56,342 bases of DNA from the NCBI GenBank assembly GCA_944358625.1, contig CALVRL010000001.1, forward strand, positions 1 to 56,342. Direction: 5' to 3'. The position numbers and the translations under genes were made by a program. This stretch comes from an uncultured Bacilli bacterium. Lineage in GTDB: Bacteria > Bacillota_I > Bacilli_A > RF39 > UBA660. Of this stretch, positions 3,836 to 19,697 are shown piece after piece; position 1 is the first letter of the stretch, and every line of letters begins with the position of its first letter. The notes beneath the pieces are model-generated. The model saw nothing but the letters and a program-made list of their open reading frames with translations, had not been told where the DNA came from and ran no database searches.

Positions 3836-4108
3836 ATGAAACAAAAATACAGCGAAGATTTAGAAATTGATCTAACAAAATTAATGGGAAAAGAATTTGA
3901 TAAATATAAAAATAAAAAATATAAACTATATTCAAATGATATAAAAGTAGCCATAATAACAATTCCAATATCTTTATTATTAACACAAATTACAGAAACA
4001 CCAATAAAAGAAAGTCTATTTATCATAAGTATAGGAAGTACATTATATACAGTAACAAGTTTATATAAAAATTCAAAAGAAAGTAAAAAAAGGTTCACAA
4101 TTAAGTGA
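3836..4108 (+). CDS. hypothetical small membrane protein (90 aa)
   Basis: ORF preceded by GAAGGAAAA. It has one or two hydrophobic segments and no recognisable family. Confidence 0.35.
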   Translation: MKQKYSEDLEIDLTKLMGKEFDKYKNKKYKLYSNDIKVAIITIPISLLLTQITETPIKESLFIISIGSTLYTVTSLYKNSKESKKRFTIK

Positions 4109-4138
4109 ATCTTTTAATATATCTTATTTATCAATAAA

Positions 4139-5380
4139 TTAATAATTCAAACTACCTTCATCTAAAAGAAAATCAGTAATTCCCATAATAACAATACCTT
4201 TATCGTCTCTCCATCTTTTAATATTATCTTTAACAATAATGATTTTTTTAAAAAAATCATTAACATTCATAAAAGATTTTTCTTCTTGTTCTCTTTTTTC
4301 TTTAGTGTCGATATTTAAAGCAGACTGAATATAAAATTTATTATTTCCCTTATTAGCAATAAAATCAATTTCGTATTGTTTTCTACCATCTTTATCTCTA
4401 GCTTCTACAACCCCAACATCAACTTTAAAACCTCTTCTTTTAAGTTCTATGTATATGATATTTTCCATAATATGATTTTCTTCTTGTTGTCTAAAATTTA
4501 GAAAAGCATTTCTAATTCCAATATCGGTAAAATAATATTTATAAGGAGTATCTATATATTTTTTACCTTTAATATCATATCTTAAGGTTTTTTCAATTAT
4601 AAAAGCATCTTCAAAATAAGATAAATAATTATAAATAGTTTTATCAGTTAACAAAGTGTTTTTATTATATGATTTAAAAGTTCTAGCAAGTTTCAAAGGG
4701 TTAGTAAGAGAACCGATACTAGAAGAAATAATTTCTATTAATTTTTCTAATTCTTCTTTATTTTTAATATTATTTCTTTCTATAACATCATTTAGATAAA
4801 CATTATCTTTCTGCATATCCAAATAATTCATTTTATCTTCTTCCTTAGTATAACTCATTATCAAAGGAAGGCCCCCATAAGTATAGTATTCTATCCAAGC
4901 CTCTTCTTTACTACCGTCATAACTAGAATAAAATTCTTTAAAAGATAATGGATAGACTCTAATTTCATCTCCCCTACCTCTAAATTCAGTAATAATATCA
5001 GAAGATAAAAACTTAGAATTACTTCCAGTAACATAAATATCCAAATTTTCTTTTCTAAGTAAACCATTTAATAATCCCTCAAAATTAGGAACCATTTGTA
5101 TTTCGTCTAAAAGTATATAATATAAATCATCATCTAAAATTTTATCATCAATATATTTTCTTAAATTTTTAGAATCAAGTAAATCAGAGTTACCATCATC
5201 ATCTAAAGCAATCATAATTATATGATTAGAACTAACACCATTATCTAATAAATAGTTTTTAAACAAATGATTTAATAAATAAGATTTACCACATCTTCTA
5301 ATACCAGTAATAATTTTTATTAAATGATTATTTTTTCTGTCAATCAACTTTTGTAAATAATAATCTCTTTTTATTTCCAC
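4139..5380 (-). CDS. AAA-family ATPase of the AAA_14/DUF4143 type (COG1373-like)
   Basis: Walker A GIRRCGKSYLL and Walker B ILLDEIQ. The likely start is GTG at 5380, 6 nt after AGGAGG (5392-5387). The ORF-track ATG at 5395 would lie inside that SD. Confidence 0.85.
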   Translation of the reverse strand: MEIKRDYYLQKLIDRKNNHLIKIITGIRRCGKSYLLNHLFKNYLLDNGVSSNHIIMIALDDDGNSDLLDSKNLRKYIDDKILDDDLYYILLDEIQMVPNFEGLLNGLLRKENLDIYVTGSNSKFLSSDIITEFRGRGDEIRVYPLSFKEFYSSYDGSKEEAWIEYYTYGGLPLIMSYTKEEDKMNYLDMQKDNVYLNDVIERNNIKNKEELEKLIEIISSSIGSLTNPLKLARTFKSYNKNTLLTDKTIYNYLSYFEDAFIIEKTLRYDIKGKKYIDTPYKYYFTDIGIRNAFLNFRQQEENHIMENIIYIELKRRGFKVDVGVVEARDKDGRKQYEIDFIANKGNNKFYIQSALNIDTKEKREQEEKSFMNVNDFFKKIIIVKDNIKRWRDDKGIVIMGITDFLLDEGSLNY

Positions 5381-12782: not shown

Positions 12783-12870
12783 TAATTTTTTCTTAACATT
12801 TATTAATAAATAATTAAAAAAACTTATAATTAAATTGATTTGAGTTAATATTGCCTTAGAGGTGATATTA

Positions 12871-13515
12871 ATGAAAAAATTCTTAACACTAACCGTTGGA
12901 ATATTACTTATACTATGGATATACTACTTACAAAAACCATATATAAATACAAAAATAAATCCCATCAGTGAAATAGACCCTTTAATTTTAGTAAATAGCA
13001 ATAATTCATTTCCAGAAAATGTCAAATTAAATTTAGTAAGCTTTCAAAAAAAACAAGTAGCTGATATAATATACAATGATTTAATAGATATGTATAATTC
13101 TGCTTTAGATGATAACATAACTTTAAAAATAAATAATGCGTATCGCACTAAAAAAGAGCAAACGAAAATGTTTAATGATAAAATGCAAAGTTATATAAAT
13201 GATGGTTATTCCAAAGAAAAAGCTTATAATCAAACCATACTAACTGTTCAAAAACCAGGTTATTCTGAACACGAAACAGGACTAGCCATTGACTTTAGTA
13301 ATGAAGGACATTATGATGAAAATGAAAAAATGTGGGAGTGGTTAAAAAATAATGCTTATAAATATGGTTTCATTTTAAGATATCCATATAATAAATATGA
13401 AATAACCAAAATTGATTATGAACCATGGCATTACCGTTATGTTGGTAAAAAAGCAGCTAAAGAAATAACTAATCAAAATTTAACTTTAGAAGAATATGTG
13501 GGAGGAAATCTATGA
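12871..13515 (+). CDS. VanY-type D-alanyl-D-alanine carboxypeptidase (peptidase M15B)
   Basis: SEHETGLAIDF and EPWHYRYVG Zn-ligand motifs, with an N-terminal TM anchor. ATG at 12871 lies 5 nt after GAGGTGA. Confidence 0.85.
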   Translation: MKKFLTLTVGILLILWIYYLQKPYINTKINPISEIDPLILVNSNNSFPENVKLNLVSFQKKQVADIIYNDLIDMYNSALDDNITLKINNAYRTKKEQTKMFNDKMQSYINDGYSKEKAYNQTILTVQKPGYSEHETGLAIDFSNEGHYDENEKMWEWLKNNAYKYGFILRYPYNKYEITKIDYEPWHYRYVGKKAAKEITNQNLTLEEYVGGNL

Positions 13516-14189
13516 ATATACTAGTTGTCGATGACGAAATAGAAATTGCCGATTTAATAGAATTATATTTAAAAAATGAAGGCTACAATGTTTATAAAAC
13601 CTATAGTAGTGAAAAAGCCTTAAAAATAATTGAAAAAAGAAACATTGACCTTGCCTTATTAGATATCATGATGCCAGGTATTAATGGATTTACATTATGC
13701 CAAACTATCAGAAAAAAGCACAATTTTCCAATTATTATGGTTACCGCTAAAATAACTGATGCCGACAAAATAAAAGGGTTAAATATAGGTGCAGATGATT
13801 ACATAACAAAACCATTTATGCCCCTAGAACTTATAGCTAGAGTAAAAGCCCAATTAAGAAGATATAAAAGCTATAATCAAAGTCAAAACAAAATATTAGT
13901 TATTAAAGATTTAACCTTAGATAAAGATAAACACGAATGTTTAAAAAACGGAAAAAAAATAAATTTAACTCCAACCGAGTTTTCTATTTTATATCTTCTA
14001 GCTAATAATAAAGATAAAGTAATAACAACAAAAAGCCTATTTGAAGAAGTATGGAAAGAACCTTATCTAACATCTAGCAGTGCAACTATCATGGTCCATA
14101 TTCGCCATTTAAGAGAAAAATTAGGAGAAAATGATAAAATAAAATATATAAATACCATATGGGGAGTAGGTTATCAAATTGAAAAATAA
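13512..14189 (+). CDS. OmpR/PhoB-family response regulator (VanR-like)
   Basis: Receiver domain DLALLDIMMPG and a winged-helix C-terminus IWGVGY. ATGA overlap with the upstream gene. Confidence 0.9.
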   Translation: MNILVVDDEIEIADLIELYLKNEGYNVYKTYSSEKALKIIEKRNIDLALLDIMMPGINGFTLCQTIRKKHNFPIIMVTAKITDADKIKGLNIGADDYITKPFMPLELIARVKAQLRRYKSYNQSQNKILVIKDLTLDKDKHECLKNGKKINLTPTEFSILYLLANNKDKVITTKSLFEEVWKEPYLTSSSATIMVHIRHLREKLGENDKIKYINTIWGVGYQIEK

Positions 14190-15255
14190 ATATGGAAAAG
14201 AATTAACCTTTAAATTCTTAAAAAAACTTTTTAAAGTAACAATTTTATATACGATTTGTTTTATCATATTTTATATAGTTGGACATCACTTATGTTCCAT
14301 GGTTACCTGGTATGCTGAAGACCCATTATATATCATATTAACAAATATCTTTTATCAGGGTTTTTTCTTACTTATAATATGGTTTATAGGTTTTATTATA
14401 ATATTTACTATAACCTTAATGAAATCATTATCCTATATCGATGCCCTAGTTTCTGAAAGTAAAAAATTAATCACTAAAACAGATGAAAAAATAAATCTTC
14501 CAGAAGATTTAAAAGAAGCTGAAGAAACTATGAATCAAATAAAAAAGGAAGCTTTATTTAATGAACGATTAGCTAAAGAAAACGAACAAAAGAAAAATGA
14601 TTTAATAGTCTATTTAGCTCATGATTTAAAAACTCCCCTAACCTCTATAATTGGTTATCTATCTTTATTAGACGAAGAAAAAAAATTAAGTTCTAAACAA
14701 AAAAACAAATTTATTAAAATAGCCTTAGAAAAATCTAATAAATTAGAAGAATTAATAAACGAACTATTTGAAATAACTAAATATAATTCCGAAACTTTAA
14801 CCATTAAAAAAGCAAAAATTAATTTAACCTTATTAATTAATCAAGTTATCGACGAATTTTATCCAATATTAAAAGAGCAAAATAAAAAAATAAACTTTTC
14901 TATAGAAAAAGATATTTTTATAGAGGCTGATTCTATTAAAATGGCTAGAGTTTTTAATAATCTAATTAAAAATGCGATTAATTATAGTTATGAAAACACT
15001 TCTATTAATATAGATATAAAGGAAGAAAATGACTTAATTATAAATATTTCTAATAAAAGTAAAACTTTAAAAAAAGAAGAGTTAGATAAAATATTTGATA
15101 AATTTTATAGAGTAGATTATTCAAGAAATACCAAATTAGGTGGTTCTGGTCTAGGACTAGCCATAGCCAAAGAAATAATCAAATTACATAATGGCAATAT
15201 AACCATTAAAAGTGAAAATGAAGAAACAACAATTACAGTAAAATTACCAAAATAA
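14179..15255 (+). CDS. sensor histidine kinase (VanS-like)
   Basis: Two N-terminal TM segments, H-box LAHDLKTPLTSIIGY, N-box NLIKNAINYS and G-box GGSGLGLAIAK. Confidence 0.9.
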   Translation: MKNKYGKELTFKFLKKLFKVTILYTICFIIFYIVGHHLCSMVTWYAEDPLYIILTNIFYQGFFLLIIWFIGFIIIFTITLMKSLSYIDALVSESKKLITKTDEKINLPEDLKEAEETMNQIKKEALFNERLAKENEQKKNDLIVYLAHDLKTPLTSIIGYLSLLDEEKKLSSKQKNKFIKIALEKSNKLEELINELFEITKYNSETLTIKKAKINLTLLINQVIDEFYPILKEQNKKINFSIEKDIFIEADSIKMARVFNNLIKNAINYSYENTSINIDIKEENDLIINISNKSKTLKKEELDKIFDKFYRVDYSRNTKLGGSGLGLAIAKEIIKLHNGNITIKSENEETTITVKLPK

Positions 15256-15341
15256 AGTGTTAATATAAACAACATTACAATTTTTATCATCAATAAAATA
15301 TATTATAAATTCTTCTTTATATATAAATCATAAAATAATAT

Positions 15342-16211
15342 TTATATTTGTGACTGTTTATTAATATTAAAATTTTCTACAATCAAATTTTTAAACTTTG
15401 TTGCATATATATTTATATTTTCTTTATTTAAAATCAAATAAATGTCAGTAATCGCCACATCTTCTCTTATAATTTCTACTTTCTTATCGTTTAAATAATT
15501 ATTTACAAATTCTATTGGAATAACCCCTACTCCAACATTTTGTAAAACTAGTTCATATATTTGATAATAGTTATCCACTATTATAGTATTTTTATTTTCA
15601 ATCTTAAGGTTATTTATAATTTCTATATCATTACAAATAATTTTATTATTTTTTAAATCATTATAGCTAAAAGTAGTATTAGAAAATATATTTTTAATAA
15701 TACAAAAATGTAATTGAGTTAATTTAGTAATTTCAAAATTATTTTTATCAATATTATCTTTATTTAAAGTAGTAATAATAAAATCTATTTTTTCCTCCAT
15801 CATTTCATTTAGTAGTAAATTCGTAGAATGCTCGTGAATGCCAACTAAAACATTGCTATATTTTAATGTTAACTTTTTAAGGGCTTTAATAATATATTGC
15901 TGAAGAAACGCATCATTAATACCAATAATTAATTTTTTTTGCTTACTTTGTTTTAAAGATAAATTTTTTTCCGCACTTAATATTTGTTCTATAGCGGGCT
16001 TAATTTGTTTATAAAGTTCTTTACCAGTTTTTGTTAGTTTAGTTCCCTTAGTATTTCTAATAAACAATGTTGTATTTAATTGTTTTTCTAAATTATTTAT
16101 ACTTTGAGTAACTGCTGGTTGGGAAATAAATAATTTTTTAGCAGCTTCAGTAATAGTTTTAGAATTAGCTACAACAAAAAATATTTTATATAATTCATAG
16201 TTAACATTCAT
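15342..16211 (-). CDS. LysR-family transcriptional regulator
   Basis: HTH ITEAAKKLFISQPAVTQSINNLEKQL, about 290 aa. ATG at 16211 lies 5 nt after GGAGGG; the track start at 16256 lacks an SD. Confidence 0.85.
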   Translation of the reverse strand: MNVNYELYKIFFVVANSKTITEAAKKLFISQPAVTQSINNLEKQLNTTLFIRNTKGTKLTKTGKELYKQIKPAIEQILSAEKNLSLKQSKQKKLIIGINDAFLQQYIIKALKKLTLKYSNVLVGIHEHSTNLLLNEMMEEKIDFIITTLNKDNIDKNNFEITKLTQLHFCIIKNIFSNTTFSYNDLKNNKIICNDIEIINNLKIENKNTIIVDNYYQIYELVLQNVGVGVIPIEFVNNYLNDKKVEIIREDVAITDIYLILNKENINIYATKFKNLIVENFNINKQSQI

Positions 16212-16368
16212 ATTTGCCCTCCAATAAATAACAAACTCCAAGCAAATATACACCATATACTACTCGGAGTTTTTTTAACAAAAAATAAAATTATATCTAA
16301 ATTATATAGCTTAAAGGCTTTAAAGTCAATGAATTATATACCTATTATCCCCTATTAGCCATAAGCAA

Positions 16369-16388
16369 TTCTTATAATAATATAAGAA
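16369..16388. promoter_or_regulatory. perfect 8-4-8 palindrome overlapping a TATAAT box; candidate operator in the LysR/rSAM divergent region
   Basis: TTCTTATA-ATAA-TATAAGAA. TATAAT at 16373-16378 lies about 75 bp upstream of the rSAM ATG. Confidence 0.3.
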
Positions 16389-16452
16389 AATAATATTTTA
16401 TTTTTTAAAATATTATATATAAAATAAAGTCTAATAAAGGAAGTGTTAGCAA

Positions 16453-17967
16453 ATGAAATTAGTAAATCCAAATGTTAAATATAAAAATTCATATTTAGAT
16501 TTAGTTAAAGCAGCTAAAAAAAATGGCGATATAAATGAAATGGGTAATGCTTATAAAGAAAACGAAACTTTTGAGCAAATGATCAAAAGATTAAAAGACC
16601 GTTCCAAAGGCAAAAATATTTCAAAATTAGAAGTTCCATCATCAATGAAATGGATAATTGAAAATAATGAAGTAGTTGGAACAATAGATTTAAGGCATTT
16701 ACTAAATAAAAGTTATTTTGAAAGATTAGGTCATGTTGCTTACTATATCCATCCCCAAAAAAGAAATAAAGGATATGCCTCTAAAGCATTAGCTTTAGCC
16801 ATTAAATGGTATAAAAAAATGCCAATCAATAAAATTTTAATTACCTGTTATAGTGATAACGAAGCTTCCAAAAAAGTTATTTTAAAAAACGGTGGAAAAT
16901 TTGAAAAAAGTGTTAAGGACAAAATGAGTAATAAAACAATTAATCGTTACTTAATAGATATAAGCGATACAACCTTTCCCCGAGTAGCTTGGTTTACAAC
17001 TAATAGAAGTTGTAATTGTAAATGTACATGGTGTTATGCCAACGACTATAAAAATAAAAATTTATCTATGAATTATGAAACAGCCAAACAATACATAAAA
17101 ATATTACCCAAAATCGGTATCAGAAAAGTTATTTTAATAGGTGGAGAGCCCACAATATATAAAGATATTAATAAAATAATTAAAGCTATTAATAAAGAAA
17201 ATATAAATATATCTATGGCTAGTAATGGAATAAAGTTTTCTGACTACAAATTTGCTGAATCACTTGTAAATGCTGGATTAAAATCAGTAAATATATCCTT
17301 AAAAGGAACTAGTGAATCAGAATATTTAACAAATACTAAAATATATGGTTTAGAAAAAACTATAAAAGGTTATAAAAAGCTAAAACAACTTGGAATAAAT
17401 GTAAGTTTATCATATGTTCTTTGTTCCAATGATAATAAAAAAATTGATGAATTATATGAATTAATGAAAGAAAATAACTTAGATAATATTTCTTTCCAAT
17501 TATATAAACCTTCTATAAATAGTAAAGATGAAACAAATATAAATGATCTAGTTTCAATATGTGAATATGTTTATAATAAATTTGAAAATAGTTCTTTTAA
17601 TTATTCAATTGAAATGTCATTACCATTATGCTTACTACCAAATAAACTCCTAAAAGACTTAACCGATAAAAAAAGAATTACCACATGCTGCCATATAGGT
17701 AAAGGCTCAGGCATAATCTTTGATACAAACTTTAATATCCTTCCTTGTAATCATTTTTTAGATATATCTTTAAATAAAGAAAAAATAATGCCTAATCAAA
17801 TTATTAAATTTTGGAATTCAACCACTGCACAAACATTCAGAAATAAAATTAATACATTTCCTTTAAAACATTGTAATAAATGTGACAAATGGCAAATTTG
17901 TGGAGGAGGATGCTCTTTAAGATGGTTAAATCCATCATTAAAAAAATACATGAATGAAAGGAGGTGA
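16453..17967 (+). CDS. fusion protein: N-terminal GNAT acetyltransferase domain plus radical SAM/SPASM peptide-maturase domain
   Basis: GNAT motif A HPQKRNKGYASKALA and SKKVILKNGGKFE. CX3CX2C is CNCKCTWC (nt 17011-17034). SPASM elements are CCHIGKG...LPC and CX2CX5CX3C = CNKCDKWQICGGGC (nt 17872-17913). Confidence 0.85.
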   Translation: MKLVNPNVKYKNSYLDLVKAAKKNGDINEMGNAYKENETFEQMIKRLKDRSKGKNISKLEVPSSMKWIIENNEVVGTIDLRHLLNKSYFERLGHVAYYIHPQKRNKGYASKALALAIKWYKKMPINKILITCYSDNEASKKVILKNGGKFEKSVKDKMSNKTINRYLIDISDTTFPRVAWFTTNRSCNCKCTWCYANDYKNKNLSMNYETAKQYIKILPKIGIRKVILIGGEPTIYKDINKIIKAINKENINISMASNGIKFSDYKFAESLVNAGLKSVNISLKGTSESEYLTNTKIYGLEKTIKGYKKLKQLGINVSLSYVLCSNDNKKIDELYELMKENNLDNISFQLYKPSINSKDETNINDLVSICEYVYNKFENSSFNYSIEMSLPLCLLPNKLLKDLTDKKRITTCCHIGKGSGIIFDTNFNILPCNHFLDISLNKEKIMPNQIIKFWNSTTAQTFRNKINTFPLKHCNKCDKWQICGGGCSLRWLNPSLKKYMNERR

Positions 17968-17971
17968 GAAA

Positions 17972-18118
17972 ATGGACGCTTTAACATTCATTAATCAAAA
18001 TTATAATGGAACTAATATCGAAGCCACTAAAACTACCGGTATAAAAAGCATTTATGCTAATAATTTAGACTGCAATTGCGTAGATAGTGACTGTTCTACT
18101 GAAACATACGAATATTAA
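17972..18118 (+). CDS. candidate RiPP precursor peptide (48 aa), absent from the ORF track
   Basis: MDALTFINQNYNGTNIEATKTTGIKSIYANNLDCNCVDSDCSTETYEY. The SD AGGAGGTGA embeds the rSAM stop codon and the ATG follows 4 nt later. A hairpin terminator lies downstream. Confidence 0.6.
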   Translation: MDALTFINQNYNGTNIEATKTTGIKSIYANNLDCNCVDSDCSTETYEY

Positions 18119-18143
18119 TAAAGTCCATTTAATTTTAAGGGTT

Positions 18144-18171
18144 AAGACTGTAATTATTTCAGTCTTTTTAT
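18144..18171 (+). terminator. intrinsic terminator after the small peptide ORF
   Basis: AAGACTG (18144-18150) pairs with CAGTCTT (18160-18166) around a 9-nt loop, followed by TTTTA. Confidence 0.5.
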
Positions 18172-18188
18172 TATATATTATAACCATT

Positions 18189-18246
18189 AAAGTAAAAACT
18201 GATAGAAATGTCAAAGTAAAAACTGATAAAAATGTCAAAGTAAAAG
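18189..18246. repeat. 24-bp tandem direct repeat, 2.4 copies
   Basis: AAAGTAAAAACTGATAGAAATGTC, then AAAGTAAAAACTGATAAAAATGTC, then AAAGTAAAAG. There is one mismatch between the full copies. Confidence 0.85.
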
Positions 18247-18430
18247 TTTATAATTTTATAGTTTTTGTAATTTACATTTACATATATTTACAAAACAATT
18301 TTATAAGATTTTTAAGCATCCTTTTTAACATTAATCTCTATGTTAAAATAAAATCAAAGGAGGTCTTTTTATCTATGTAAATTCTAACGACTATTTAATA
18401 TACCAAAATCAAAATGGAGTTTATAGTTTA

Positions 18431-18808
18431 TTGTTAGGGGGGAATGGACTATCTGCACATAATTTAATAGATTTAATGAATAAATTAAAGGTAGAAAATA
18501 AAATTCCAATTACAGCGGAAATTATACCTACTATATTACCTTCAGCGCCAACACCAGAAATGAAAATGCAAAGAATAGATGAAATCACAACTCAAAGCGG
18601 AGATTTAATCATTACAACAATGGATGGGCAAAATTATATTTTTAAAGACAGTTATGGACACACAGTAGATTTAGTAATTTCCGGCCAATTTGAGCCAGAA
18701 AATATAGATTATGAGGATATAAGAAGACCTAATATATTTGAGGAAGATACTAATATGTTTGAAGATGGTATTAATTTAGATAATTCACACCATCACAAAA
18801 CCAGATAG
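18431..18808 (+). CDS. hypothetical protein (125 aa from TTG; frame open back to 18329)
   Basis: ORF with a protein-like, acidic C-terminal half and no recognised family. The start is uncertain: TTG at 18431 lies 11 nt after GGAG, while a strong SD at 18356-18364 is followed in-frame only by ATC at 18371. Confidence 0.5.
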   Translation: MLGGNGLSAHNLIDLMNKLKVENKIPITAEIIPTILPSAPTPEMKMQRIDEITTQSGDLIITTMDGQNYIFKDSYGHTVDLVISGQFEPENIDYEDIRRPNIFEEDTNMFEDGINLDNSHHHKTR

Positions 18809-18857
18809 CTAGCAAAAACTGGCTTTTTTTAGTATAATGAAAAAGGAGGTAAGACAT

Positions 18858-19697
18858 ATGGAATATTCTCCTAATAAAATGAAAGAAGAATTAACTAAGG
18901 AAAATTTTAATTTTAAAAAGAAATTTGGTCAAAATTTTATTGTGGATGAAAATATTATTAACAATATAATAAATAAATCGAATATTGATAAAGAAACATT
19001 AGTAATTGAAATAGGCCCAGGAGCAGGTTCATTAACCAGCGAATTAGGAAAAGTAGCTAAAAATGTTATAGCCTACGAGATAGATAAAACGCTAAAACCA
19101 ATATTAGAAAAAAACATTCAAAGTAATACAGAAATAATATATGAAGATTTCTTAAAAAGAAATATTTCAGAAGATTTAAAAAAATATAACTATAAAAAAA
19201 TATATGTAGTAGCTAACCTCCCCTATTATATTACAACACCAATAATAATCAAATTAATAGAAGATAAATTAAACATAGATAAAATAGTAGTAATGGTTCA
19301 AAAAGAAGTTGGAGATAGATTCAAAGCAAAACCAAACACCAAAGAATATAATTCTCTATCGATATTTTTAAATTATTACTATACTGTGGAAAAACTATTA
19401 GATGTTAGTAAAAATGTTTTCATACCAAAACCAAATGTCGATAGTATAGTCATATCACTTACTAAAAAAGAAGATAAAATAAAAGTTGATAATGAAAAAT
19501 TATTTTTTAAATTAGTAAGAGATTCATTCAAACAAAAAAGAAAAACATTAAAAAATAATCTAAAAGGATATAACTTAAAAAAAATAGAAGAAATTTTAAA
19601 AAAACACAATTTAGATTTAACAATAAGGGCCGAGGCCTTACCCATAGAAATATTTGCCGAAATAGCAAATAATTTAAAAGAAGGAGACGAAAAATGA
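18858..19697 (+). CDS. rsmA: 16S rRNA (adenine1518/1519-N6)-dimethyltransferase
   Basis: FGQNFI, EIGPGAGSLT and NLPYYITTPI motifs. ATG at 18858 follows AAGGAGGT. Confidence 0.9.
   Translation: MEYSPNKMKEELTKENFNFKKKFGQNFIVDENIINNIINKSNIDKETLVIEIGPGAGSLTSELGKVAKNVIAYEIDKTLKPILEKNIQSNTEIIYEDFLKRNISEDLKKYNYKKIYVVANLPYYITTPIIIKLIEDKLNIDKIVVMVQKEVGDRFKAKPNTKEYNSLSIFLNYYYTVEKLLDVSKNVFIPKPNVDSIVISLTKKEDKIKVDNEKLFFKLVRDSFKQKRKTLKNNLKGYNLKKIEEILKKHNLDLTIRAEALPIEIFAEIANNLKEGDEK

What the first reader, a model, noticed from the sequence alone, without database searches (positions are those of the whole stretch)
17972..18118. Unannotated 48-codon ORF with a CX3D/CX3D/CX3T C-terminus, translationally coupled to the rSAM gene: candidate precursor peptide
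Seen in the sequence:
- The ATG at 17972 lies 4 nt after the rSAM stop codon.
- That stop is embedded in a strong SD, AGGAGGTGA.
- A hairpin plus T-run follows at 18144-18171.
- The ORF is below the 60-aa cutoff of the supplied track.
- It translates to MDALTFINQNYNGTNIEATKTTGIKSIYANNLDCNCVDSDCSTETYEY.

All three Cys lie in the last 15 residues and form overlapping motifs: C34-X3-D38, C36-X3-D40 and C41-X3-T45.

Established knowledge: the ranthipeptide maturase PapB links Cys sulfur to Asp side-chain carbons within CX3D motifs of freyrasin. Sactisynthases link Cys to alpha-carbons.

Inference: residues 1 to ~31 are a leader and DCNCVDSDCSTETYEY is a core receiving up to three thioethers. An alternative is suggested by the terminal E44-X3-Y48 and the C-terminal Tyr, which recall PqqA (E-X3-Y) and MftA (C-terminal Tyr) chemistry. 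The crosslink type cannot be determined from sequence.
Basis: partly seen in the sequence, partly recalled or inferred. Interest (0 to 1): 0.85.

Follow-up and report, generated by a model that had tools for sequence, protein, structure and literature searches.

The report
Cys-rich precursor peptide beside GNAT-radical-SAM enzyme
A tiny 48-codon gene immediately after a radical-SAM enzyme gene is real and conserved, and is most likely the peptide that enzyme modifies, which defines an unnamed family of modified peptides common in uncultured gut bacteria.

Summary
The 48-codon ORF (17972-18118) starts 4 nt after the stop of a 504-aa GNAT + radical-SAM + SPASM fusion gene, and that stop lies inside AGGAGGTGA.

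It is a real gene. An equivalent peptide lies beside the enzyme homologue in every locus inspected that holds one. pN/pS is 0.14-0.24 overall and 0.00-0.04 in the C-terminal 17 residues, with synonymous sites near saturation.

About 64 distinct relatives share a 28-32-aa leader and an acidic core, [LI]-D-C-[ND]-C-[VI]-D ... [DN]-C. In five closely related genomes the rSAM domain and the peptide are missing together, while the GNAT stays as a stand-alone gene.

The precursor-peptide reading is supported. Cys-to-carbon thioethers (ranthipeptide- or sactipeptide-like) are the likeliest chemistry, but this is inferred. Only the first CX3D motif is widely conserved (55/64).

The PqqA/MftA-like alternative is not supported. 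A C-terminal Tyr occurs in 13/64 peptides and ExxxY in 7/64.

The family matches no Pfam or NCBIfam model and carries no informative name. No paper in the searched library prints its motif. It lacks an RRE and is often fused or adjacent to a GNAT. I rate it a new variant of a known kind.

The parts
16453..17967 (+). Gene for a 504-aa fusion enzyme with three parts: an N-terminal GNAT acetyltransferase domain, a radical-SAM core and a C-terminal SPASM domain.
   Evidence: Pfam finds Radical_SAM (aa 185-337, 1.7e-25), Acetyltransf_3 (aa 47-148, 6e-13) and Fer4_12. No NCBIfam equivalog reaches its cut-off. In an alignment of 55 homologues, C191, C194, GGE 230-232 and the SPASM Cys C393, C413 and C432 are invariant, and C187, C474, C477, C483 and C487 are at least 90% conserved. 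The AF2 model has pLDDT 91 and pTM 0.87, and shows GNAT, barrel and SPASM with no RRE-like domain.
16453..16968 (+). GNAT domain (aa 1-172), with an intact RxxGxA acetyl-CoA motif (KRNKGYA).
   Evidence: Pfam and NCBIfam give weak RimL-like and ArsN1-like matches. The same module occurs as a stand-alone 178-aa gene in the same slot in L004-L008, at 81-82% identity. It is also fused to an unrelated ~185-aa domain in P0050, P0057, P0060 and P0065.
17011..17034 (+). CX3CX2C radical-SAM cluster motif (C187, C191, C194; sequence CNCKCTWC).
   Evidence: Seen in the translation and the motif scan. C191 and C194 are invariant and C187 is at least 90% conserved.
17959..17967 (+). Shine-Dalgarno AGGAGG (17959-17964) fused to the enzyme's TGA stop (17965-17967). 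This is the translational coupling signal for the peptide gene.
   Evidence: Sequence. The same GGAGGTGA context precedes the peptide ATG in L001, L002, L009 and L018. ATGA stop/start overlaps occur in L020 and L034-L041.
17972..18118 (+). 48-codon precursor-type peptide gene (stop TAA at 18116-18118).
   Evidence: Translation. Orthologues. The profile search finds 42 clusters at 90% identity and 31 clusters at 50% identity among 1.84 billion representatives. pN/pS is 0.14-0.24.
17972..18064 (+). Leader region (aa 1-31), motif M-x-A-L-x5-6-Y-x-G-T-x-I-x5-6-G-[IL]-K.
   Evidence: Alignments A1, A2 and A4. Leader length is 28-32 aa in 62/64 peptides. pN/pS is 0.21-0.40.
18065..18115 (+). Core region (aa 32-48), LDCNCVDSDCSTETYEY. 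The conserved module is [LI]-D-C-[ND]-C-[VI]-D-x-D-C, followed by a variable tail.
   Evidence: pN/pS is 0.00-0.04 while pS is 0.5-0.9. The same CxCx4C unit is repeated three times in the 86-aa precursor of L044.
18144..18169 (+). Terminator-like hairpin (aagactg / cagtctt) plus T-run, marking the end of the bicistronic unit.
   Evidence: Weak alone. The position is conserved, with a stem-loop plus T-run in about 9/12 loci.
15342..16256 (-). Divergent LysR-family regulator. It is an optional neighbour and not a conserved part of the cassette.
   Evidence: Pfam HTH_1 plus LysR_substrate. It is present with the cassette in the window and L002. It was not detected in L003 or L001, which have the cassette. 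It is also absent from L004-L008, which lack the rSAM domain and peptide.

Best explanation
The ORF 17972-18118 encodes a ribosomal precursor peptide that is the substrate of the enzyme encoded just upstream.

Shown:
- The two genes form one bicistronic, translationally coupled unit that ends at a terminator-like hairpin.
- The peptide has a moderately conserved ~31-aa leader and an almost invariant, strongly acidic, Lys/Arg-free core, [LI]-D-C-[ND]-C-[VI]-D...[DN]-C.
- The enzyme has an intact radical-SAM site and a SPASM domain with eight conserved Cys, enough for two auxiliary clusters.
- There is no RRE. A GNAT domain sits where RRE-containing maturases carry theirs. In relatives the GNAT is a separate gene before or after the pair, or is absent.

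Inferred:
- The enzyme binds the leader directly.
- It abstracts an H atom from a core residue and joins the Cys sulfurs to carbon atoms of neighbouring residues. The flanking Asp is the most probable acceptor, giving two or three intramolecular thioether rings, as ranthipeptide and sactipeptide synthases do.
- The GNAT adds an acyl group to the peptide, or protects the producer.
- No conserved protease or exporter accompanies the pair, so the final form and destination of the product are unknown.
For: Co-occurrence:
- A peptide of this family lies immediately 3' of the rSAM homologue in L001-L003, L009, L012, L018, L020, L022, L034-L041 and L046, and 5' of it in L042/L043. A divergent Cys-rich peptide with a similar leader is seen in L024 and L044. 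Enzyme identity across these loci runs from 36 to 94%.
- A degenerate DNA pattern for the core found 8 sites in the metagenome collection. Six were true peptide ORFs, and all six had the rSAM gene directly upstream.
- Sister genomes L004-L008 keep the GNAT in the same slot but lack the rSAM domain and the peptide together.

Selection:
- pN/pS is 0.14-0.24 overall and at most 0.04 in the core.
- The exact 49-aa peptide P0133 is indexed in more than 1500 blocks of the collection.

Family anatomy:
- The tandem triplication of the CxCx4C unit is seen in L044.

Enzyme:
- Pfam, NCBIfam, the homologue alignment and AF2.
- The nearest solved structures are peptide- or protein-modifying SPASM/twitch enzymes: SuiB, anSME, ChlB, SkfB and EpeE.

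Chemistry precedent:
- PapB links Cys S to Asp C-beta or Glu C-gamma, and tolerates CXnD with n = 0-6 (PMC9413430).
- SCIFF peptides, NxxcA and QhpD form non-alpha thioethers to Thr, Asn, Asp and Glu (PMC8326336).

GNAT link:
- It is found fused, separate upstream (L020), and separate downstream (L046, L033).
Against: - There is no direct evidence of transcription, translation or modification.
- No family-specific model assigns the enzyme to a thioether-forming clade. PapB scores 55 bits against a cut-off of 340, and StsB scores 61 against 625. CteB is not among the top 50 structural matches.
- Only the first CX3D is well conserved. A few members lack Cys1 or Cys2 (P0171, P0174, P0179, L042).
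- No RRE, leader protease or dedicated exporter is conserved nearby.
- The enzyme-then-peptide, stoichiometrically coupled layout is atypical for bacteriocin-type RiPPs.
- One lineage (L015-L017) keeps an intact enzyme while the peptide has lost its start codon and SD and carries a frameshift in its tail.
- The GNAT persists without the rSAM domain and peptide in five genomes. It is also fused to an unrelated domain elsewhere, so its role may be independent of the peptide.
Confidence: 0.72

Rival explanations
1. The substrate is the same but the chemistry is different. The rSAM modifies the peptide by something other than Cys-to-carbon thioethers. Options include anSME-like oxidation of Cys to formylglycine, a C-C or C-S crosslink involving the tail Tyr/Trp, or epimerisation.
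For: - anSME gives the best-fitting structural superposition (rmsd 4.3-4.7 A over about 355 columns), and like this rSAM domain it has no RRE.
- An aromatic residue follows the last Cys in 49/64 peptides.
- The enzyme is roughly equidistant from many SPASM families.
Against: - The Cys residues and their flanking Asp are the invariant features, whereas the aromatic tail is absent in the ...TNCD class and in the tail-less allele P0196.
- There is no C/S-x-P/A-x-R sulfatase motif.
- Cys-rich acidic cores next to SPASM enzymes have so far proved to be thioether substrates (PMC8326336).
Confidence: 0.13
2. The peptide is a sacrificial scaffold for an intracellular cofactor or small molecule, following PQQ or mycofactocin logic, rather than a secreted peptide product.
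For: - It is a minimal two-gene unit with no conserved protease or exporter.
- It is embedded among housekeeping genes: next to ksgA here, and just downstream of relA/spoT in L009 and L018.
- The coupled, roughly 1:1 expression layout fits this idea.
- Close relatives have small genomes. The sister genomes L004 and L005 are 1.34 and 1.52 Mb.
Against: - ExxxY is present in 7/64 peptides and a C-terminal Tyr in 13/64.
- No PqqB/C/D-, MftB/D/E-like or peptidase genes accompany the pair.
- The cassette is an accessory, absent from close relatives.
- The core unit is tandemly triplicated in L044, which is typical of peptide products.
Confidence: 0.09
3. The peptide is a genuine small protein but not the enzyme's substrate. 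It could be a Cys/Asp-rich metal- or Fe-S-binding accessory, or a regulator, co-translated with an rSAM that acts on another molecule.
For: - The CxCx4C core with flanking Asp could bind metal.
- The best partial NCBIfam matches include MoaA and NirJ/AhbD-type enzymes, which are not RiPP enzymes.
Against: - The leader/core asymmetry of selection, the repeat expansion of the core, the variable tails, and the strict pairing across 36-94% enzyme identity are the hallmarks of a RiPP precursor.
- No other candidate substrate gene is conserved nearby.
Confidence: 0.05
4. The ORF is a chance open frame in a terminator-containing 3' UTR.
For: It is short and has no database annotation beyond 'unknown'.
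Against: - pN/pS is far below 1, with saturated synonymous sites.
- The frame, start and SD are conserved across divergent loci.
- P(open by chance) is 0.009.
Confidence: 0.01

Closest known systems
Ranthipeptides: freyrasin (PapA/PapB), and SCIFF peptides such as thermocellin (CteA/CteB)
   Same: - A short precursor with an N-terminal leader and a Cys- and Asp-rich C-terminal core.
- A radical-SAM/SPASM maturase encoded adjacently.
- A CX3D motif, as in PapA.
- Like SCIFF, a minimal gene pair found widely in anaerobic Firmicutes without an obvious protease or exporter, which argues against a classical bacteriocin role (PMC8326336; PMC9413430).
   Different: - The peptides match no NCBIfam model, SCIFF included. 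The enzyme is far below the PapB cut-off (55 vs 340 bits), and no SCIFF-maturase model is among its 25 best hits.
- There is no RRE. A GNAT domain is fused at the N-terminus or encoded alongside.
- The enzyme gene precedes the peptide gene and is translationally coupled to it.
- The core signature is D-C-x-C-x-D-x-D-C rather than repeated CX3D or the six-Cys SCIFF pattern.
- The crosslinks have not been determined.
Sactipeptides (e.g. subtilosin/AlbA, SkfA/SkfB, ruminococcin C, StsA/StsB)
   Same: rSAM-SPASM/twitch enzymes make Cys-S-to-carbon thioethers in a leader-dependent way. SkfB is among the sequence and structure hits.
   Different: - The StsB model scores 61 bits against a cut-off of 625.
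- Sactipeptide cores usually place donor Cys and acceptor residues on opposite arms of a hairpin. Here three Cys sit within 8 residues, each preceded by Asp or Asn.
- There is no RRE.
NxxcA/NxxcB and QhpC/QhpD (beta/gamma-thioethers to Asn, Asp, Glu)
   Same: Cys sulfur is linked to a side-chain carbon of a nearby Asn, Asp or Glu by a SPASM rSAM. D33-x-x-C36 and D38-x-x-C41 in the window peptide resemble the N-x-x-C spacing.
   Different: - The D-x-x-C spacing is not kept in the four-Cys class (...CVDCGDSADC...).
- There is no Rgg/SHP quorum-sensing context.
- QhpC is an enzyme subunit, not a small peptide.
PqqA/PqqE and MftA/MftC (peptide-derived cofactors)
   Same: A small peptide sits next to an rSAM-SPASM enzyme. 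The window peptide happens to have E44-x3-Y48 and a C-terminal Tyr.
   Different: These residues are not conserved in the family (7/64 and 13/64). There is no PqqD/MftB-type RRE and no downstream pathway genes. PqqE is only a distant structural hit (rank 38).
GNAT-containing RiPP clusters (selidamides; PasC in the daropeptide pas cluster)
   Same: A GNAT is encoded with a RiPP maturase. In the pas cluster it accompanies an rSAM-SPASM enzyme and its role is unknown (PMC10849128).
   Different: - Here the GNAT is covalently fused to the rSAM in many members.
- The core has no Lys to acylate (K/R in 1/64 cores).
- The GNAT also exists alone in sister genomes.

Membership tests
RiPP precursor / rSAM-SPASM maturase pair (generic) | A short ORF is adjacent to, and co-conserved with, the modifying enzyme. 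| tested here: met
   The peptide is adjacent to the rSAM homologue in every enzyme-bearing locus inspected. It is also adjacent in 6/6 true hits of the enzyme-independent pattern scan. Both are lost together in L004-L008.
RiPP precursor / rSAM-SPASM maturase pair (generic) | Bipartite peptide: a recognisable leader plus a core carrying the modified residues. | tested here: met
   Leader motif and length are conserved (28-32 aa in 62/64). The core motif is near-invariant. pN/pS is 0.21-0.40 in the leader against 0.00-0.04 in the core.
RiPP precursor / rSAM-SPASM maturase pair (generic) | The enzyme has CX3CX2C, a SAM-binding GGE motif and SPASM auxiliary-cluster Cys. | tested here: met
   Of the CX3CX2C Cys, C191 and C194 are invariant and C187 is at least 90% conserved. 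GGE 230-232 is invariant. C393/412/413/432/474/477/483/487 are conserved. AF2 gives pLDDT 91.
RiPP precursor / rSAM-SPASM maturase pair (generic) | The peptide is actually modified by the enzyme. | not testable with these tools
   This needs co-expression and mass spectrometry.
Ranthipeptides / SCIFF | The precursor matches the curated SCIFF or other Cys-rich precursor models. | tested here: not met
   No NCBIfam or Pfam hit for the window peptide. Among the 36 family members there was only one stray, unrelated weak match.
Ranthipeptides / SCIFF | The maturase belongs to the PapB / SCIFF-maturase equivalogs. | tested here: not met
   PapB model: 55.3 bits against a cut-off of 340. No SCIFF-maturase model is among the 25 best hits, and every listed hit is far below its cut-off.
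Ranthipeptides / SCIFF | A leader-binding RRE (PqqD-like) domain, fused or discrete. | tested here: not met
   The N-terminal 172 aa are a GNAT fold. No RRE/PqqD-type Pfam family is listed for any called neighbour gene in the loci fetched with the look-up of encoding contigs.
Ranthipeptides / SCIFF | A thioether from Cys S to a non-alpha carbon (Asp C-beta, Thr C-gamma, etc.). | not testable with these tools
   Only the substrate prerequisite could be checked. Cys1-x3-[DE] occurs in 55/64 and Cys2-x3-[DE] in 39/64.
Sactipeptides | A sactisynthase equivalog and Cys-S-to-C-alpha links. | tested here: not met
   The StsB model scores 61 bits against a cut-off of 625. The linkage type itself is not testable here.
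PqqA / MftA-type cofactor precursors | Conserved Glu-x3-Tyr (PqqA) or a C-terminal Val-Tyr (MftA). | tested here: not met
   ExxxY in 7/64 and a C-terminal Tyr in 13/64. The classes ending in STPW and TNCD, and the tail-less allele P0196, lack these features.
anSME substrates | A C/S-x-P/A-x-R motif in a sulfatase. | tested here: not met
   The motif is absent from the peptide. anSME is only a structural neighbour, and the anSME model scores 65.6 bits against a cut-off of 349.
Anti-phage defence rSAM (pVip) | A full-length match to viperin-type models. | tested here: not met
   Only the generic rSAM core (aa 179-344) matches, at 48-50 bits.

The most novel reading that the evidence does not exclude
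The GNAT-rSAM fusion and its D-C-x-C-x-D-x-D-C peptide make a product of a kind not yet described. One possibility is a compact, acylated, multiply S-C-bridged acidic knot. Another is a peptide-derived intracellular factor made without leader protease or exporter. In this reading the GNAT domain replaces the RRE as the leader-handling or tailoring module. The system would be abundant in uncultured, small-genome gut Bacilli.
Probability: 0.2. Interest if true: 0.8.

Novelty: new variant of a known kind. Interest (0 to 1): 0.62.

Why it matters
- It adds an unnamed, RRE-less precursor/maturase family to the radical-SAM RiPPs. RRE-based compendia, such as the 15,108 RRE-associated rSAMs of PMC10288494, are expected to miss it by construction.
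- It is very common in human-gut metagenomes. One exact peptide sequence is indexed in more than 1500 blocks of the collection, and its database entry counts 786 contigs.
- The bacteria that carry it are uncultured, have small genomes, and their chemistry is essentially unknown.
- The short invariant core and the natural GNAT fusion give a compact, directly testable system for three questions: how SPASM enzymes recognise substrates without an RRE, what a GNAT does in such pathways, and what SCIFF-like minimal cassettes are for.

Tried and rejected
I replaced it with a hand-made degenerate DNA pattern.
- The viral-contig scan gave no hits, so there is no sign that the cassette is phage-borne.
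- Rfam found nothing in 15000-19000, so no riboswitch or leader RNA is evident.
- The promoter scan was no better than shuffles, 33 sites against 32 expected, so I make no promoter claim.
- PADLOC gave only generic rSAM-core similarity to viperins. I rejected the defence-system idea.
- AF2 of the alternative GNAT + unknown-domain fusion failed (pLDDT 53; C-domain below 50), so I ran no fold search and that partner domain stays unidentified.
- Five literature searches (GNAT + rSAM/SPASM/RiPP combinations, plus the motif strings DCNCVD, DCDCVD and CVDGDCS) found no description of the family.
- P0190 and P0207, long 'members' of the peptide clusters, are unrelated proteins and clustering artefacts.
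- I could not decide whether the GNAT-only state of L004-L008 arose by deletion or is ancestral. No rSAM remnants are left there.
Full report
**1. Observation**

- A 504-codon ORF (16453-17967, +) ends in a TGA that is the last triplet of AGGAGGTGA (17959-17967).
- Four bases later an ATG (17972) opens a 48-codon frame ending at TAA 18116-18118.
- The product is MDALTFINQNYNGTNIEATKTTGIKSIYANNLDCNCVDSDCSTETYEY.
- The three Cys (34, 36, 41) and the C-x3-D / C-x3-D / C-x3-T / E-x3-Y spacings are all there.

An in-frame ATG at 17954 lies upstream of the SD. It has no counterpart in L002 (in-frame TAA) or L003, so 17972 is the real start.

The downstream hairpin (18144-18150 / 18160-18166, T-run to 18169) is not significant alone (z = -0.36) and was missed by the terminator scan. 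A stem-loop plus T-run nevertheless follows the peptide stop in about 9 of 12 related loci. The window's stem is homologous to those in L002 and L003.

At 26.6% GC, a 48-codon open stretch has a probability of about 0.009.

**2. The enzyme**

- Pfam finds a GNAT domain (aa 47-148), a radical-SAM core (aa 185-337) and Fer4_12.
- An alignment of 55 homologues shows invariant C191, C194 and GGE 230-232, a near-invariant C187, and eight conserved C-terminal Cys with the SPASM CX2CX5CX3C signature.
- AF2 gives a confident model (pLDDT 91, pTM 0.87) with GNAT, partial TIM barrel and SPASM, and no RRE-like winged helix.
- No NCBIfam equivalog comes near its cut-off. The best are MoaA-type core matches. 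Among full-length matches: GeoRSP rSAM 87 bits vs 400, StsB 61 vs 625, KxxxW maturase 60 vs 500, PapB 55 vs 340.
- The closest solved proteins by sequence and fold are GDGT-MAS, BlsE, SuiB, anSME, MoaA, ChlB, SkfB, EpeE and PqqE.
- So it is a SPASM peptide/protein-modifying type of enzyme, but a member of no named family.

**3. The small ORF is a gene, tied to the enzyme**

Orthologous loci with 74-78% enzyme identity (L001-L003) carry the same 48-aa ORF in the same place. The C-terminus LDCNCVD[SG]DCSTETYEY is invariant and the leader varies.

Nei-Gojobori counts give pN/pS of 0.14-0.24 overall, 0.21-0.40 for residues 1-31 and 0.00-0.04 for residues 32-48. pS is 0.5-0.9.

More distant enzymes (36-58% identity) are likewise followed, or in L042/L043 preceded, by a related peptide. 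The gap between the enzyme stop and the peptide start ranges from an ATGA overlap to about 30 nt. A GGAGG lies in the enzyme's last codons.

A profile of the peptides finds 42 clusters at 90% identity. An exhaustive HMMER pass over 1.84 billion representatives finds only 31 clusters at 50% identity. Apart from two long mis-called or truncated ORFs (77 and 81 aa, excluded from the statistics), these are 41-55 aa. The family is therefore small and specific.

As a reciprocal test I scanned the metagenome collection with a degenerate DNA pattern for L-D-C-[ND]-C-V-D-x-D-C. This gave 8 hits, of which 2 were chance. All 6 real peptide ORFs sit directly 3' of an rSAM homologue.

The exact 49-aa peptide P0133 is indexed in more than 1500 blocks of the collection. 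In all eight places shown it overlaps the end of a 515-aa GNAT-rSAM gene.

Five sister genomes share the window's synteny, with neighbouring proteins 77-98% identical. They have yabE-VanY-RR-HK-GNAT-ksgA with a stand-alone 178-aa GNAT, and lack the rSAM domain, the peptide and the LysR gene. The rSAM domain and the peptide are thus gained or lost as a pair.

**4. Family anatomy (64 distinct peptides)**

| Feature | Count |
|---|---|
| Leader length 28-32 aa | 62/64 |
| Asp before Cys1 | 64/64 |
| Cys1 | 63/64 |
| N/D after Cys1 | 61/64 |
| Cys2 | 58/64 |
| V/I | 57/64 |
| Asp after V/I | 55/64 |
| A later [DN]-C | 63/64 |
| K/R in core | 1/64 |
| 4-6 acidic residues in core | 59/64 |

- The leader motif is M-x-A-L ... 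Y-x-G-T-x-I ... G-[IL]-K.
- Tails fall into classes...STETYEY / STDGYES / STGGYEW...ETYCEG; a four-Cys class ...CVDCGDSADCSTPW; and ...GDCTNCD.
- L044 has an 86-aa precursor in which the unit Y-[ND]-C-H-C-S-S-D-D-C-x-G-N-N-C is repeated three times. The C-x-C-x4-C spacing is the same as C34/C36/C41 in the window. This identifies that unit as the functional module.

**5.

- Cys1-x3-[DE] holds in 55/64 peptides and Cys2-x3-[DE] in 39/64. C41-x3-T is specific to the window's subclass.
- ExxxY (7/64) and a C-terminal Tyr (13/64) are not family features.
- A tail-less allele (...DCDCVDGDCSH, P0196) with an intact start circulates on 24 contigs.
- PqqA/MftA-type chemistry on the terminal Tyr is therefore unlikely to be the family's function.
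- Cys-centred chemistry on the D-C-x-C-x-D-x-D-C unit is the best inference. PapB links Cys S to Asp C-beta (or Glu C-gamma) and tolerates CXnD with n = 0-6 (PMC9413430). SCIFF maturases, NxxcB and QhpD make related non-alpha thioethers (PMC8326336). Alpha-carbon (sacti) links cannot be excluded.

**6. The GNAT**

It has an intact RxxGxA motif and weak RimL-like and ArsN1-like similarity. Its arrangements are:
- fused to the rSAM in the window and in P0001-P0027;
- split but adjacent upstream in L020, with fused 515-aa versions in the same 90% cluster;
- a separate and more divergent GNAT downstream of the peptide in L046 and L033;
- not found within 4 kb by similarity to the window's GNAT in L018, L022, L024, L042 or L044 (L018 has an unrelated GNAT-family gene about 3.4 kb upstream);
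- alone in L004-L008, and fused to an unrelated ~185-aa domain in P0050, P0057, P0060 and P0065.

The association with the pair is therefore frequent but not obligatory, and the GNAT can function without it. Tailoring acylation, a leader-handling role in place of an RRE, and self-protection all remain open. GNATs are known in other RiPP clusters, including an rSAM-SPASM daropeptide cluster where the role is also unknown (PMC10849128).

**7. Evidence that cuts the other way**

In L015-L017 the enzyme ORF is intact but the peptide gene is damaged. The ATGA overlap is mutated (ATG to ATT), the SD is lost, and a +1 insertion right after Cys3-Ser truncates the tail.

It is a minority allele of a species in which the intact peptide is found on hundreds of contigs. 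It leaves the conserved core intact, and looks like recent decay via the P0196 allele.

No protease, exporter or RRE is conserved near the pair. The ABC-2 transporter next to the CAG:710-type locus sits beside glycosyltransferase genes, which may point to a cell-envelope role; I did not test this. LysR, VanY and the two-component genes in the window are not conserved partners. Expression is untested.

**8. Novelty**

- The peptides hit nothing in Pfam or NCBIfam.
- The only source name for any peptide of the family is 'unknown [Clostridium sp. CAG:710]'. The few enzyme homologues that carry a name are called only 'radical SAM protein' or 'hypothetical protein'.
- No paper in the library prints the core motif or describes a GNAT-rSAM RiPP pair.
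- RRE-centred compendia are expected to miss it by design (PMC10288494).
- It works like a ranthipeptide/sactipeptide system but fails the testable membership criteria (models, RRE). I file it as a new variant of a known kind, not as a member of those families.

**9. Verdict**

The finding is real and its main interpretation is right. The detailed crosslink proposal and the Tyr-based alternative are, respectively, only partly supported and not supported.

Confidence that this is the enzyme's precursor peptide is about 0.85. Confidence that the chemistry is Cys-to-carbon thioether formation is about 0.5-0.6. The confidence of 0.72 given for the best explanation reflects the combined statement.

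Noticed in passing
window 16453-16968; L004 5995-6531 (likewise L005-L008); P0050/P0057/P0060/P0065: The same GNAT module (71-84% identical) occurs in three states in this lineage. It is fused to rSAM-SPASM, it stands alone in the identical HK-GNAT-ksgA slot, and it is fused to an unknown ~185-aa C-terminal domain with no Pfam or NCBIfam match. AF2 could not fold that domain (pLDDT below 50).
   Followed up: partly
L015 5540-5690 (also L016, L017), compared with L026, L027, L031; P0196: These are decaying alleles of the precursor beside an intact enzyme. A +1 C after Cys3-Ser truncates the tail (P0196, 24 contigs). In L015-L017 the ATG start is additionally mutated to ATT (which also removes the enzyme's TGA stop) and the SD is lost.
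   Followed up: yes
L044 5036-5296: An 86-aa precursor with three tandem copies of the CxCx4C core unit, next to a 40%-identical stand-alone rSAM. It is flanked by Transposase_31, Y1_Tnp and TraG-like genes, so the cassette may be on a mobile element there.
   Followed up: partly
L024, uncalled ORF downstream of the rSAM gene (4001-5032): A distant rSAM (36% identity) is followed by an uncalled ORF, MFRLMLLLKTYHRGTNKIAPVPSGLTPRNESFCQGQCPCKCACQCDCKCD. It has a family-like leader and an alternating C-x-C-x-C core, so it may be a sister family.
   Followed up: no
window 18189-18245: A 24-nt tandem repeat (AAAGTAAAAACTGATAAAAATGTC, 2.4 copies, 96% match) lies in the spacer between the peptide terminator and the next ORF. 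Its function is unknown.
   Followed up: no
window 18431-18808: This 125-aa ORF with no family match lies upstream of ksgA. Its N-terminal ~100 residues are 65% identical to part of a 229-aa ORF that lies downstream of ksgA in L004 (7589-8278). This implies a local rearrangement or truncation in the window's genome.
   Followed up: partly
window 12862-15255: A VanY-type D,D-carboxypeptidase plus a response regulator and histidine kinase cassette sits between yabE and the rSAM locus. It is present in L002 and L004-L008 but absent from L003, so it is another variable insert in the same yabE-ksgA slot.
   Followed up: partly
L008 6001-6515: The stand-alone GNAT shows an apparent frameshift between aa 66 and 68. 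This is either a sequencing error or a pseudogene in that MAG.
   Followed up: no
L009 2555-5705 and L018 2553-5254: In two divergent lineages the rSAM-peptide pair sits immediately downstream of a relA/spoT-family gene, with gaps of 6 and 11 nt. Co-transcription with the stringent-response gene is possible.
   Followed up: no
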